From UHGV virus genome UHGV-0135847: DNA of 35,435 nt, one strand, 5' to 3'. The notes beneath the pieces were generated by a model. The model was given only the letters and a program-made list of their open reading frames with translations. It did not search any database and was not told the origin of the DNA. The stretch is from a virus. A program made the translations under genes and the position numbers. Below, in pieces: positions 9,207-35,435 of the stretch (position 1 is the first letter of the stretch; each line of letters opens with the position of its first letter).

Positions 9207-10166
9207 ATGAAAATTTGTATCGACGACGGCTCCACCAACATCAAGCTGGCATGGACTGAGAACGGCGAACGCCGCAACGCCATCAGCCCGAACAGCTTCA
9301 AGTCGGAATGGTCTGCGCCGTTCGGTGGCACGCAGCCCGCGAACTACATGCTTGATGGCGTGCGCTATGGTTTTGATCCGGTCAGCGATCGCTTTGTCCA
9401 GACGACCGACACGCAATACCAGTACAGCGATGTGAATGTCATTGCCATTCATCACGCGCTGGTCAAATCAGGCATCACGCCACAGGAGGTGGATGTGGTT
9501 GTCACCCTGCCACTGAGCGAGTATTTCGACACAAACGCACAGCCGGACATGGCCAACATAAACCGCAAAAAAGCAAACGTTATGCGCCCGGTGGAATACC
9601 AGAACGGCGAAGCATTCACTATCCGTAATGTACGGGTTATGCCTGAATCCATTCCGGCTGGCTTTAAAGCACTGGCTGACATGAGTCCGTTTGAATCCCT
9701 GCTGATTGTGGATTTAGGTGGAACCACGCTGGATGTGGCAAAGGTTCAGGGACAACTGGCAGGTATCAGCCAGGTGTTTTGCGATCCACACGTAGGCGTT
9801 TCCCTGATGGCCGATGCAGTACTGTCGGTGATGGCCACTAACGGTATGCGTACCAGTCACCACATCGCCAATACCATTATCGAACATCGCCATGATGAAG
9901 CCTGGCTGCGCCAGCACATCTACAATGACGCGCATTACGCCAGCCTGATGGCGGTTATTCGTGAAAAGGAAGAAACACTGAAACAACGCGTGATCCGCGC
10001 GCTGGCGGGTTTTTCGGGTTACGGGCGGGTGATGGTTGTCGGTGGCGGGGCGGAGATTGTGGCACCCGCTATCCGCGAAGCCTGCGGAGTTAATGCGATT
10101 TTCATCGCGGACGGGGTGCCACAGTTTGCTCTGGTTAATGGGCTGTACGCAATGGACAAGGAGTAA
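9207..10166 (+). CDS. parM: ParM/StbA-like actin-type segregation ATPase
   Basis: N-terminus MKICIDDGSTNIKLAW and motifs VMPESIPAG, LIVDLGGTTLD, VVGGGAE closely follow plasmid R1 ParM (StbA) as recalled. Confidence 0.8.
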   Translation: MKICIDDGSTNIKLAWTENGERRNAISPNSFKSEWSAPFGGTQPANYMLDGVRYGFDPVSDRFVQTTDTQYQYSDVNVIAIHHALVKSGITPQEVDVVVTLPLSEYFDTNAQPDMANINRKKANVMRPVEYQNGEAFTIRNVRVMPESIPAGFKALADMSPFESLLIVDLGGTTLDVAKVQGQLAGISQVFCDPHVGVSLMADAVLSVMATNGMRTSHHIANTIIEHRHDEAWLRQHIYNDAHYASLMAVIREKEETLKQRVIRALAGFSGYGRVMVVGGGAEIVAPAIREACGVNAIFIADGVPQFALVNGLYAMDKE

Positions 10167-10170
10167 ACCA

Positions 10171-10482
10171 ATGACGACACCAACCAGACGAATAAGTTTC
10201 TATCTGAAGCCCGCCGCCGTCAAGAACGAAGGCGAAGCATGCGCCTGGCTGGACAGCCTTACACCAGAAGCCCGTAAAAACGGCCAACGCGTGGCTTTTC
10301 TGGCCGGGCTGGCGCTTCTGAAAATGAATCCGGCAGAGGCTTACCGACTGGCAGCATGGGCTGACGATGAGGCGTTATCAGTGACACAAACCAGGACAGA
10401 ACGCCTCCTGTCACAGCCAGTACCAACCGCACAGATAACCAGTCAGATGGCCGGAAATATCAGGGCGTTATTTCCTGAATAA
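10171..10482 (+). CDS. parR: ParR/StbB-like centromere-binding adaptor
   Basis: 103 aa starting 5 nt after parM; pattern RRISFYLKP...WLDSL...AFLAGLALL...ALFPE matches R1 ParR layout as recalled; ORF track lists it inside a longer out-of-context frame (10036..10482). Confidence 0.7.
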   Translation: MTTPTRRISFYLKPAAVKNEGEACAWLDSLTPEARKNGQRVAFLAGLALLKMNPAEAYRLAAWADDEALSVTQTRTERLLSQPVPTAQITSQMAGNIRALFPE

Positions 10483-33413: not shown

Positions 33414-34553
33414 GTGGGAAACAATAAAGTGAAATTAGGAAGAAATGATAAGTGCTGGTGTAATTCAGGACTTAAGTATAAAAAGTGCCATCTTGGTCGA
33501 GACCGTGAAACTCCGGTATCCAAAGCCGAGGCACTGAAATTTTCAAAGTCTCTCTCGCAGAGAAAGGCATGTTATGCGCCAGCATCCATGCACGAAGATT
33601 GTGATAAACGCATCGTTCAGGCGCATACGATATCTAAGAGCAGTAGCCTTAAGGCGATCGCCGACTCCAGCAATCACGTCATGGGGGTGATAATGAACTT
33701 AGCAAGCCTGATGAGAAACAACGGAAAATGGCTTCCCGAGAAGATCGGTATCAATCAGGCATCCACTTTTACAGGATTTTGTGCAGTTCATGACAGAATC
33801 TTGTTTTCATGCCTAGAGAACGAAAAATTTACAGGCACGGACGAGCAGTGCTTTGCCTTAATGTTTCGTTCATTGTCTAAAGAAATTTACGCCAAAGAAG
33901 GGGGAGTGCTATCTTCCGATTTTGCTAAAAATGCCGATAAAGGAAAGCTACAAGTTGAACAGTATTATATTCAGAAATTAATCGACCAGCACCAAAGTGG
34001 CTTAAATGCAGCAATAATTGAATTAAATAATCTTAAAACTAGCCTCGACCGCATCCTACTTAGCAGGCAATTTTCAGAAATTGAAAGTGTTATCTTCACT
34101 TTTGCAGAGCCTTTACCAATTGTAGTTTCGTCAATTCTTTCACCGGAGAGGGATTTCGATGGGACCAAAATTCAGGATTTGAGCGATCTTACAGTGTCGG
34201 CGGAACAAGTATGTTTCAATGCTTTTTCCTGCGGAGGTAAGGGATATGTAGTGTTCAGTTGGCTGAGAACTTCAACAATTATCAGACGTTTTATACGGAC
34301 ACTAATTAAGATCCCGGCTAACAGGATGTTCAATACCCTTCTGTATTTTTTCTTCACAAAGGCCGAAAATACATATTCATCCCCTGAGTGGTGGGACAGG
34401 CTCAGTGATAAACAGCGAGAGAATATCGGCAACATGATTATGTCAGGGGTTGAATTTTTTGGCAGACCTACATCACAGGTTGATCATTCCGTTGATTATA
34501 ACGCCGCTGCACTTGAAGAGATAACATGCAGCAACAACGAAATTTGCAGCTGA
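33414..34553 (+). CDS. AT-rich cargo gene: protein with N-terminal SEC-C zinc-binding motif and ~340-aa uncharacterised domain (start GTG 33414 or GTG 33429)
   Basis: GRNDKCWCNSGLKYKKCH matches the SecA C-terminal SEC-C motif GRNDPCPCGSGKKYKQCH; rest of protein unrecognised; DNA visibly AT-rich. Confidence 0.65.
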   Translation: MGNNKVKLGRNDKCWCNSGLKYKKCHLGRDRETPVSKAEALKFSKSLSQRKACYAPASMHEDCDKRIVQAHTISKSSSLKAIADSSNHVMGVIMNLASLMRNNGKWLPEKIGINQASTFTGFCAVHDRILFSCLENEKFTGTDEQCFALMFRSLSKEIYAKEGGVLSSDFAKNADKGKLQVEQYYIQKLIDQHQSGLNAAIIELNNLKTSLDRILLSRQFSEIESVIFTFAEPLPIVVSSILSPERDFDGTKIQDLSDLTVSAEQVCFNAFSCGGKGYVVFSWLRTSTIIRRFIRTLIKIPANRMFNTLLYFFFTKAENTYSSPEWWDRLSDKQRENIGNMIMSGVEFFGRPTSQVDHSVDYNAAALEEITCSNNEICS

Positions 34554-34842: not shown

Positions 34843-35103
34843 ATGTTCCGTTGTCCGCTTTGTGGCGCATCTGCCCGAATCCGCACCAGTCGTCCGGAAA
34901 ACGATTCAAACACTGTGCGGCAAAAGTATTACCAGTGTAACAACCTGGAATGCGGCGTATGCTTCTCAACACTGGAAGCTTTCCATAAATTCACATCAAA
35001 ACACGCCTCCGGCGTTCACTCTTCGGAAGGTATCCCGTGGCATGAGCTGCCAGCTTCACACAGGGGAAACAATCAGATGAGTTTGCCTTTACCTCAGAAT
35101 TAA
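34843..35103 (+). CDS. ogr: Ogr/Delta-family zinc-finger late transcription activator
   Basis: MFRCPLCGASARIRTSR...YYQCNNLECGVCFSTLE parallels P2 Ogr MFHCPLCQHAAHARTSR...YHQCQNVNCSATF; GGGAGG RBS. Confidence 0.85.
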   Translation: MFRCPLCGASARIRTSRPENDSNTVRQKYYQCNNLECGVCFSTLEAFHKFTSKHASGVHSSEGIPWHELPASHRGNNQMSLPLPQN

Positions 35104-35294
35104 CAGGCAGAATTGCCGGAGTAACAAAAAAACGATAGATTACCCGCGGGTGCCTTTCGGCTGATGGTCGGAGGGAATACCCGAAGGCCGGATGTGGAAA
35201 GGCCCCGGAAAACATTTCTGTTTAACCGAGGCCCTAACATATCTACCTTAAGCAAGTGATAGGTTAGCGCCTCTCCAACAAAGGAGCAAGCGCT

Positions 35295-35435
35295 ATGTCG
35301 CAAAAATCGCTTACGGCCATCACGTTCTGCGTGACGGTAATCCTCATCATCTGGATGCTACACGGTTCGCTGTGTGAAATACGGATGAGCTTCTGGGGAG
35401 CGGAGTTTGCGGCGTTCTTACAGTGTAAGCAGTAA
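35295..35435 (+). CDS. hok: Hok/Gef-family type I toxin (46 aa), not in ORF track
   Basis: MSQKSLTAITFCVTVILIIWMLHGSLCEIRMSFWGAEFAAFLQCKQ: TM helix plus SLCEIR and E(F/L)AAFL motifs as in E. coli HokA and R1 Hok; AAGGAG RBS 8 nt upstream; stop is the last codon of the window. Confidence 0.7.
   Translation: MSQKSLTAITFCVTVILIIWMLHGSLCEIRMSFWGAEFAAFLQCKQ

What the first reader, a model, noticed from the sequence alone, without database searches (positions are those of the whole stretch)
35104..35435. Hok/Gef-family type I toxin locus immediately beyond ogr at the prophage right edge
A 46-aa ORF with a TM helix and the Hok signature (SLCEIR...EFAAFL) lies behind an AAGGAG RBS and about 190 bp of leader-like sequence that could hold the regulatory fold and an antisense Sok-like RNA. 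Together with the ParMR module this gives the element two plasmid-type maintenance functions; alternatively the gene belongs to the host flank and marks the integration site. The window ends at its stop codon, so the 3' regulatory elements and attR are not visible.
Basis: partly seen in the sequence, partly recalled or inferred. Interest (0 to 1): 0.5.

Follow-up and report, generated by a model that had tools for sequence, protein, structure and literature searches.

The report
Phage-borne hok/sok toxin-antitoxin cassette
The last 330 bases of the window hold a complete-looking hok/sok-type small-toxin/antisense-RNA cassette that belongs to a P2-like prophage of E. coli, not to the host; this peptide is already annotated and catalogued, so it is an ordinary find.

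Summary
Window 35295-35435 encodes a 46-aa Hok/Gef peptide (Pfam PF01848 above its cutoff; PHROG 251, E 2.5e-23). It lies behind an AAGGAG ribosome-binding site and a 147-nt transcribed leader homologous to hok leaders (Rfam sok, E 1e-8, below the gathering score).

Identical genomes supply the sequence beyond the window. There the mRNA 5' end (GGGUGCC...) pairs with a 3' GGCACCC box, followed by a terminator. This long-range closure covaries in 84 distinct relatives.

An antisense Sok-like RNA (about 35253 to 35192, minus strand) is inferred from homology to the annotated K-12 SokB and SokC. Its promoter-like hexamers are conserved.

The cassette is phage DNA. It lies about 940 bp inside attR (yecA/leuZ site) and is present in the isolated phage P88.

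One family feature fails: no mok reading frame runs into hok in this allele.

The exact peptide is listed in a 2026 Hok catalogue, and a one-residue variant was reported toxic there. Verdict: already known; low interest.

The parts
34843..35103 (+). ogr (late-gene activator of P2-like phages), the upstream neighbour. No intrinsic terminator separates it from the hok cassette.
   Evidence: Pfam PF04606, E 5e-14. The terminator scan finds none between the ogr stop and the hok start. In 93 of 162 related loci an ogr homologue ends 192-194 nt before the hok ATG.
35113..35141 (+). hok promoter-like site: TTGCCG (35113-35118), 17 nt, TAGATT (35136-35141). It would start transcription near 35148.
   Evidence: Read from the sequence. 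TAGATT/TAGAAT and the spacing to GGGTGCC are conserved in the relatives. It was not picked up by the stricter consensus scan, so it is an inference.
35148..35162 (+). 5' end box of the hok mRNA (tac-like), GGGUGCCUUUCGGCU. It pairs with the 3' fold-back box that lies beyond the window.
   Evidence: The Rfam RF01794 match starts here. In the 409-nt fold these 15 nt pair with GGCUGAAG-UGGCACCC. The helix covaries.
35148..35294 (+). Transcribed hok leader (147 nt), homologous to the leaders of K-12 hokB and hokC and of Stx-phage hok copies.
   Evidence: Rfam sok model 1-157 matched in full, E 1.2e-8. Alignments A1.
35192..35253 (-). Predicted Sok-like antisense RNA (about 62 nt): a single-stranded 5' tail of 13-17 nt, then a GGGCCUCGG...CCGGGGCCU hairpin.
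   Evidence: Positional homology to the annotated SokB and SokC of K-12. Fold -22.9 kcal/mol, z -3.4. The tail is variable among relatives and the hairpin is conserved. No expression data were available.
35261..35289 (-). Sok-like promoter on the minus strand: -35 TTGCTC (complement of 35284-35289), 17 nt, -10 TAACCT (complement of 35261-35266). The -35 overlaps the hok ribosome-binding site.
   Evidence: -10 TAACCT is present in 83 of 84 distinct relatives. The -35 reads TTGCTC, TTGCCT, TTTACT, TTGTCT or TGACTC at the 17-nt spacing. It places the start at about 35253, where the homology to SokB also puts it.
35228..35273 (+). Sok-target hairpin of the leader: GAGGCCCUAAC ... GGUUAGCGCCUC around a variable loop.
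   Evidence: RNAalifold helix, columns 110-122 with 146-157, 98.6% of cells paired. The mok start codons of hokB and hokC align to its 5' arm.
35164..35259 (+). 31-codon leader ORF in the frame homologous to mok. It ends at TGA 35257-35259, 22 nt before the ribosome-binding site. It is probably not a functional mok.
   Evidence: It is not conserved: the Stx-phage copy stops after 6 codons. A 1-nt indel separates this allele from relatives in which the frame runs on to +80.
35281..35286 (+). hok ribosome-binding site AAGGAG. It can pair with CUCC at 35272-35275.
   Evidence: Sequence. Local hairpin in the minimum-energy fold.
35295..35435 (+). hok toxin gene: 46 aa, one hydrophobic helix, SLCEIR and AEFAAF motifs.
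   Evidence: Pfam PF01848 above its cutoff. PHROG 251. 68 homologues were found, all those that carry a source name being called Hok/Gef. Median dN/dS 0.24. The exact peptide is entry 1628 of cluster 72 in the 2026 Hok catalogue.
35401..35416 (+). Box inside the coding region (GCGGAGUUUGCGGCGU) that pairs with the start-codon region 35295-35310.
   Evidence: RNAalifold helix, columns 181-196 with 289-304, 99.7% of cells paired. The pairs never vary or vary on one side only, so covariation is uninformative here.

Best explanation
This is a hok/sok-type type I toxin-antitoxin cassette carried as an accessory gene (a moron) by a P2-like, P88-type (Xuanwuvirus) prophage. It sits between ogr and the phage attachment site.

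Proposed mechanism:
1. A weak promoter (35113-35141) makes a roughly 410-nt hok mRNA.
2. The 5' end of that mRNA folds back onto a 3' box, and its start codon is paired with a box inside the coding region. The full-length mRNA is therefore stable but untranslated.
3. A short antisense RNA (about 35253 to 35192) is made from a promoter that overlaps the hok ribosome-binding site. It pairs with the leader and keeps the activated mRNA silent or triggers its cleavage.
4. If antisense synthesis stops, the unstable antisense RNA decays, the 46-aa membrane peptide is made, and the cell is killed or lysed. Synthesis could stop on loss of the prophage, on transcription shut-off, or possibly on induction.

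Shown here:
- Family membership of the peptide.
- Homology of the leader.
- The conserved, covarying mRNA fold.
- Location inside the prophage.
- Purifying selection on the peptide.

Inferred:
- Both promoters.
- The ends and the existence of the antisense RNA.
- 3' processing of the mRNA.
- The biological role. Prophage addiction or help with lysis are the most plausible, by analogy with R1 hok/sok and with hokW-sokW of prophage Sp5.
For: Peptide:
- Pfam PF01848, 30.1 bits against a cutoff of 22.
- PHROG 251, E 2.5e-23.
- 68 homologues were found, and all those that carry a source name are called Hok/Gef. The full-length members form a uniform 46-aa subfamily in Escherichia, Shigella, Salmonella and Klebsiella.
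- Median dN/dS is 0.24.
- The exact peptide is listed in a 2026 catalogue. The V16A variant 72_1621 and the Stx-phage type 72_1589 were cloned there; the text names only three other constructs as non-toxic.

RNA:
- Rfam sok model matched end to end, E 1.2e-8.
- The leader aligns with K-12 hokB and hokC.
- The 409-nt transcript folds at -178 kcal/mol, z -7.3, with 5'-3' closure.
- In 84 distinct relatives, 99.1% of cells pair, against 36-45% when the partners are slid.
- 10 pairs changed on both sides, reached by 0 of 500 shuffles. These include all 4 variable pairs of the long-range helix.
- The antisense -10 hexamer is conserved in 83 of 84 relatives.

Phage ownership:
- A 121-bp att duplication lies about 940 bp to the right of the hok stop, and K-12 shows the empty site.
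- The identical peptide and leader are present in phage P88.
- ogr lies upstream in 110 of 162 related loci.
Against: - No reading frame with an ATG, GTG or TTG start runs into the hok start in this allele. In plasmid R1, mok translation up to the hok ribosome-binding site is mandatory (PMC9841398). Hok might therefore be translationally silent here, or be regulated differently.
- The Rfam score is below the family's gathering score.
- Neither promoter passed the stricter consensus scan.
- No transcript data were available for either RNA.
- The covarying structure was derived from the same alignment on which it was counted.
Confidence: 0.85

Rival explanations
1. The cassette is a translationally silent relic. 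The peptide gene is intact, but with the mok frame broken Hok is never made, as in the inactive chromosomal hok loci of E. coli K-12.
For: - No ORF reads into hok. The frame homologous to mok stops at TGA 35257-35259, and the mok ATG position of hokB and hokC carries ATA here.
- Stop codons in R1 mok upstream of hok abolish toxicity.
- The K-12 hok loci are reported to be inactive (PMC1635323).
Against: - The mok-less arrangement is the majority type (109 of 162 loci), and the inducible phage P88 carries it.
- The peptide is under purifying selection.
- The fold is kept by compensatory changes.
- A truly decayed copy about 700 bp away in the same prophage shows what relaxation looks like: 73% identity and an internal deletion.
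Confidence: 0.12
2. The hok gene belongs to the host chromosome and marks the integration site.
For: The window ends at the gene, so nothing in the window itself places it.
Against: - In E. coli E5 and O157:H7 PV15-279, the host sequence resumes only at the leuZ 3' region, about 940 bp beyond the hok stop.
- The K-12 empty site (yecA-leuZ) has no hok.
- The cassette is in the genome records of P88 and other phages.
Confidence: 0.01
3. The ORF and the leader resemble hok by chance.
For: The ORF is very short, and the Rfam hit is below the gathering score.
Against: - Two independent protein models match above threshold.
- The leader is homologous base by base to hokB and hokC.
- The fold has z -7.3.
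- Covariation supports the fold.
Confidence: 0.01

Closest known systems
Cluster 72 Hok peptides of the 2026 Hok catalogue (Escalera-Maurer et al., bioRxiv 10.1101/2025.08.07.668861); RefSeq WP_000078920.1 'Hok/Gef family protein'; gp52 of phage P88
   Same: The amino-acid sequence is identical to catalogue entry 1628 and to the P88 protein. The cassette and its position after ogr are also the same.
   Different: Nothing at the level of the gene. The catalogue did not analyse Mok, Sok or the mRNA elements of this cluster.
hok/sok (parB) of plasmid R1
   Same: - Toxin family.
- Weak hok promoter and 5'-3' fold-back of the mRNA.
- Antisense RNA with a single-stranded 5' tail and a terminal hairpin, encoded opposite the leader.
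- A terminator after the 3' box.
   Different: - The peptide is 46 aa rather than 52.
- No mok frame overlaps hok.
- The cassette is carried by an integrating phage rather than a plasmid.
hokB/sokB and hokC/sokC of E. coli K-12
   Same: The leaders align base by base. The annotated Sok RNAs map onto window 35192-35253.
   Different: The K-12 loci have annotated mokB and mokC frames whose ATG aligns to a position that has no start codon here.
hokW-sokW of Stx2 prophage Sp5 (Takada et al. 2021, PMC8621323)
   Same: A prophage-borne hok/sok system. It has been shown experimentally to be toxic, to be neutralised by its antisense RNA, and to speed lysis and phage release after mitomycin C.
   Different: HokW is a different 51-aa paralogue, judged from the hokW cloning primer, which encodes M-K-Q-Q-K-A-M. 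The 46-aa type in Stx phages, about 85% identical to this cassette in DNA, is a separate locus.

Membership tests
Hok/Gef toxin family (Pfam PF01848) | Match to the family model above the curated cutoff | tested here: met
   30.1 bits against a cutoff of 22, E 3.7e-7, residues 7-44. PHROG 251, E 2.5e-23. The NCBIfam HokA and Hok models match only below their cutoffs.
Hok/Gef toxin family (Pfam PF01848) | Peptide of about 50 aa with one N-terminal hydrophobic helix and the residues conserved in more than 80% of Hok peptides (M1, C..T in the helix, L-C-E, a later E) | tested here: met
   46 aa, with C12-x-T14, L26-C27-E28 and E37. The list of conserved residues comes from the 2026 catalogue. Matching them by position is my own reading of the sequence.
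Hok/Gef toxin family (Pfam PF01848) | The peptide is toxic when expressed | not testable with these tools
   Indirect only. Constructs 72_1621 (one substitution, V16A) and 72_1589 were tested in the 2026 preprint and are not among the three reported as non-toxic.
[quoted passage not shown] | Long-range pairing of the mRNA 5' end (tac) with a 3' fold-back box (fbi) | tested here: met
   15-bp closure in the 409-nt fold, using the downstream sequence of identical genomes. Six near-invariant pairs plus four pairs that all show compensatory changes.
[quoted passage not shown] | A cis-encoded antisense Sok RNA with its own promoter opposite the leader | tested here: inconclusive
   Positional homology to the annotated SokB and SokC. 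Conserved promoter-like hexamers. Fold of tail plus hairpin. No transcript evidence. The Rfam sok model scored 44.8 bits, below the gathering score of 59.
[quoted passage not shown] | A mok reading frame that starts in the Sok-target region and is translated at least up to the hok ribosome-binding site | tested here: not met
   No ATG-, GTG- or TTG-initiated frame reads into hok in the window, in P88, or in 109 of 162 relatives. 53 relatives have a long overlapping frame, but from a different start.
[quoted passage not shown] | 3' processing of the mRNA that activates translation; unstable Sok against stable hok mRNA | not testable with these tools
   Needs RNA half-life and end-mapping experiments.
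P2-like (Peduoviridae, P88-type) prophage cargo | Lies between the phage's own genes and the attachment-site repeat, and is present in isolated phage genomes | tested here: met
   att repeat at L003 2806-2926 and L004 2972-3092, with the hok stop at L004 2029. Present in P88, 500465-2, Chuche, PhiR44_2 and P884B11.

The most novel reading that the evidence does not exclude
The 46-aa 'cluster 72' hok cassettes of P2-like and Stx phages may work without a Mok leader peptide. In the commonest allele, including the window and phage P88, the leader frame is closed before the hok ribosome-binding site. Hok translation would then be gated only by mRNA folding and the antisense RNA, or by read-through transcripts from ogr during lytic growth, since no terminator separates ogr from hok. 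That would be a regulatory variant of the hok/sok paradigm that ties toxin release to the phage late programme.
Probability: 0.3. Interest if true: 0.45.

Novelty: already known. Interest (0 to 1): 0.2.

Why it matters
It matters little beyond annotation. Hok genes are known to be enriched in prophages: 9.3% of Escherichia phages in IMG/VR carry one, and hok is about four times over-represented in prophages. This exact peptide is annotated in RefSeq and in phage P88, and it is catalogued.

Three points are useful:
- The cassette is phage cargo, which settles the prophage boundary. Gene-based prophage callers cut about 940 bp short of attR and truncate the 3' control elements of hok.
- The element combines homologues of both stability systems of plasmid R1 (ParMR and hok/sok) on an integrating phage.
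- The apparent lack of mok in most members of this cluster is a small, testable open point about how these toxins are controlled.

Tried and rejected
- The 31-codon leader ORF (35164-35259) as mok: rejected. It is not conserved, since the Stx copy stops after 6 codons. It also ends before the ribosome-binding site.
- The short ORF from ATG 35192 (19 codons) or GTG 35194 as a universal mok: rejected. The Salmonella-type relatives lack both start codons.
- Host-flank origin: rejected.
Alignments were used instead.
- The scan of one genome per species gave only 7 loci, some of them in non-enterobacterial assemblies that look contaminated.
- Literature searches for this locus in P2-like phages or in P88 found nothing specific.
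- PADLOC returned no match for the peptide.
- The promoter scan at default stringency did not report either proposed promoter.
- Folding the 3'-truncated mRNA gave a local 5' hairpin rather than the tac-ucb pairing implied by the Rfam model. I did not interpret this further.
- Abortive infection as the role: weakened. A 2026 report found that R1 hok/sok does not protect against T4.

Full report
**What is in the sequence**

It runs from 35295 to 35435 on the plus strand and encodes 46 aa, MSQKSLTAITFCVTVILIIWMLHGSLCEIRMSFWGAEFAAFLQCKQ. Its stop codon is the last codon of the window. AAGGAG sits at 35281-35286, 8 nt before the ATG. The gene upstream (34843-35103) is ogr (PF04606, E 5e-14), so the spacer is 191 bp.

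The peptide matches several family models:
- Pfam HOK_GEF above its curated cutoff: 30.1 bits against 22.
- PHROG 251, 'MokW-like host killing', over its full length, E 2.5e-23.
- The NCBIfam Hok models, but only below their cutoffs.

A search of 5.8 billion proteins returned 68 relatives. All those that carry a source name are called Hok/Gef. The full-length members form a uniform 46-aa subfamily in Escherichia, Shigella, Salmonella and Klebsiella.

**The RNA side**

The Rfam 'sok' model (RF01794) matches 35148-35305 on the plus strand from its first to its last position. The E-value is 1.2e-8, but 44.8 bits is below the gathering score of 59. The model lies on the sense strand of the hok leader. 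The hit therefore shows leader homology and is not direct evidence of an antisense RNA.

The window stops at the stop codon, so I took the continuation from genomes that are 100% identical over the last 876 bases: E. coli O157:H7 PV15-279 and strain E5. Downstream of the stop come, in order:
- a GC-rich hairpin;
- the box GGCUGAAGUGGCACCC;
- a terminator hairpin followed by a T run.

The 409-nt transcript from 35148 to that terminator folds at -178.1 kcal/mol (z -7.3). Its first 15 nt, GGGUGCCUUUCGGCU, pair with that 3' box. This is the fold-back closure that defines hok mRNAs.

I then collected 160 related loci from IMG/VR and from genomes and aligned 84 distinct full-length cassettes. Counting on the consensus structure gave the following:
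- 99.1% of cells pair, against 36-45% when the partners are slid by 1-3 columns.
- 10 pairs show changes on both sides, a value reached by none of 500 shuffles.
- All four variable pairs of the long-range helix are compensated, for example U-A to C-G and G-C to A-U in 9 sequences each.
- The start-codon region 35295-35310 pairs with a box inside the coding region (35401-35416). These pairs hardly vary, so they say little either way.

One caveat applies: the structure was predicted from the same alignment on which it was counted.

**The antisense RNA**

K-12 annotates SokC and SokB opposite the hokC and hokB leaders. Aligned to the window, they cover about 35192-35253. The minus strand there reads GCUUAAGGUAGAUAUGUUAGGGCCUCGGUUAAACAGAAAUGUUUUCCGGGGCCUUUCCACAU. 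It folds into a free 5' tail plus a strong hairpin, which is the architecture of SokB.

Upstream on the minus strand lie TTGCTC, a 17-nt spacer and TAACCT, spanning the complement of 35261-35289. The -35 hexamer overlaps the hok ribosome-binding site. Among the 84 relatives the -10 is TAACCT in 83. The -35 reads TTGCTC, TTGCCT, TTTACT, TTGTCT or TGACTC at the 17-nt spacing. The 5' tail of the predicted RNA exists in about 30 versions, while the hairpin is conserved. A variable tail is expected for the recognition part of an antisense RNA.

The sense promoter would be TTGCCG, 17 nt, TAGATT (35113-35141). Neither promoter passed the stricter consensus scan, and I had no expression data. The antisense RNA and both promoters are therefore inferences.

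**Phage or host**

In strain E5 the prophage lies between yecA and the leuZ-cysT-glyW tRNA cluster. K-12 has the empty site.

The two junctions share a 121-bp direct repeat: the 3' 55 nt of tRNA-Leu plus the 3'ETS-leuZ small RNA. The right copy starts 943 bp after the hok stop. Host sequence resumes only there.

Other evidence points the same way:
- The same cassette, with an identical peptide and a leader differing by one base, follows ogr in the isolated phage P88. It is also present in 500465-2, Chuche, PhiR44_2 and P884B11.
- 110 of 162 related loci have ogr within 1.5 kb upstream, and in 93 of them ogr ends 192-194 nt before the hok ATG.
- Stx phages carry a copy about 85% identical in DNA. 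Its homology runs from about 35127 to just past the 3' box. P88 shares the sequence up to 120 nt after the stop.

The mobile unit is therefore the roughly 375-bp stretch from promoter to fold-back box, and the host-flank alternative is refuted.

The window itself begins at the stop codon of the integrase gene and ends at the stop codon of hok. In addition, 31 of the related IMG/VR contigs end at exactly the same point. Both facts are signs of gene-based prophage trimming.

**The feature that does not fit**

In R1, hokB and hokC, a mok frame starts in the Sok-target region and overlaps hok. In R1 its translation up to the hok ribosome-binding site is mandatory.

In the window the picture is different:
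- The position aligned to the mokC ATG reads ATA.
- An in-frame TAG lies 30 nt before the hok ATG.
- No ATG-, GTG- or TTG-initiated frame reads into hok.

The same holds for P88 and for 109 of 162 relatives. The other 53 relatives have a 60-70-codon frame overlapping hok, but it starts about 100-130 nt upstream of the hok ATG (at ATGTGG about -103/-100, or at an ATG near -130). A single extra base in AACATATCTACC closes that frame in the window allele. The Salmonella-type members lack those start codons altogether.

A conserved Mok is therefore not evident in this cluster. The 2026 catalogue of Hok explicitly left Mok unanalysed.

This does not look like decay:
- The peptide evolves at a median dN/dS of 0.24.
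- The fold is maintained by compensatory changes.
- A genuinely decayed second copy lies about 700 bp further right in the same prophage. It is 73% identical and has lost the antisense promoter, the ribosome-binding site and the first 23 codons.

**What is known**

- RefSeq names the protein WP_000078920.1, 'Hok/Gef family protein'.
- The P88 record notes it as hok/gef.
- Escalera-Maurer et al. (bioRxiv 2026) list the exact peptide as entry 1628 of their abundant cluster 72. They cloned 72_1621 (V16A) and 72_1589 (the Stx-phage type). Their text names only three other constructs as non-toxic out of 45 tested.
- They also report 6290 Hok homologues in IMG/VR phages and a four-fold enrichment of hok in prophages.
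- For the role, the nearest experiment is hokW-sokW of prophage Sp5. HokW is a different 51-aa paralogue. That system is toxic, is neutralised by its antisense RNA, and halves phage release when deleted.
- Protection against T4 by R1 hok/sok was not reproduced in 2026.

**Verdict**

The remark about ParMR also holds: ParM at 9207-10166 matches R1 ParM at E 3e-92, and a ParR/StbB-like ORF follows it.

The locus is a known kind of thing and a known sequence, so novelty is 'already known' and interest is low. The one open point is how Hok translation is controlled without a mok frame. A related question is whether read-through from ogr, which has no terminator of its own, links the toxin to the late programme.

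Noticed in passing
window 9207-10166 (+) and 10036-10482 (+): A full-length ParM (PF06406 and PF21523; E 3e-92 to R1 ParM structures) and a ParR/StbB-like protein (PF10784) sit in an integrase-bearing P2-like prophage. With hok/sok, the phage carries homologues of both stability systems of plasmid R1.
   Followed up: partly
window 33414-34553 (+): A 379-aa ORF lies between tail gene D and ogr, in a stretch of about 40% G+C against about 55% for the neighbouring phage genes. Only an N-terminal SEC-C motif is recognisable. RefSeq calls it 'YecA family protein'. It has no PHROG match, and homology with P88 starts only after it. It is probably another accessory gene (moron) of unknown function.
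   Followed up: partly
L004 2732-2860 (E. coli E5, about 700 bp beyond the window's end): A second, decayed hok cassette lies inside the same prophage. It is 73% identical to the promoter and leader. An internal deletion of about 128 nt joins the leader to the SLCEIR part of the gene. It is present in 26 of 85 related loci that have a long right flank.
   Followed up: partly
L003 2806-2926 and L004 2972-3092; K-12 empty site L005 2247-2370: The attachment-site duplication is 121 bp. It covers the 3' 55 nt of tRNA-Leu (leuZ) and the whole 3'ETS-leuZ regulatory small RNA. After integration, the tRNA operon therefore ends in phage-supplied sequence.
   Followed up: partly
window 35104-35147; L004 2115-2142: No intrinsic terminator lies between ogr and hok. 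The first plus-strand terminator after ogr is the one behind the hok 3' box. ogr transcripts may therefore run through hok with a 5' extension that could change its fold.
   Followed up: no
31 related IMG/VR loci among L016-L168: 31 of 162 related loci end exactly at the hok stop codon, as the window does. Gene-based prophage trimming seems to cut this phage type about 940 bp short of attR as a rule, and it removes the 3' control elements of hok.
   Followed up: partly
L009, L010, L013: Cassettes 74-100% identical to the query peptide were found in assemblies labelled Planococcaceae MAG, Vagococcus sp. and Xanthomonas pisi. Enterobacterial contamination of those assemblies is the likely cause.
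   Followed up: no
L004 2218-2499 (-): A 93-aa ORF with a signal-peptide-like N-terminus lies between hok and the decayed copy. It has no Pfam match.
   Followed up: no
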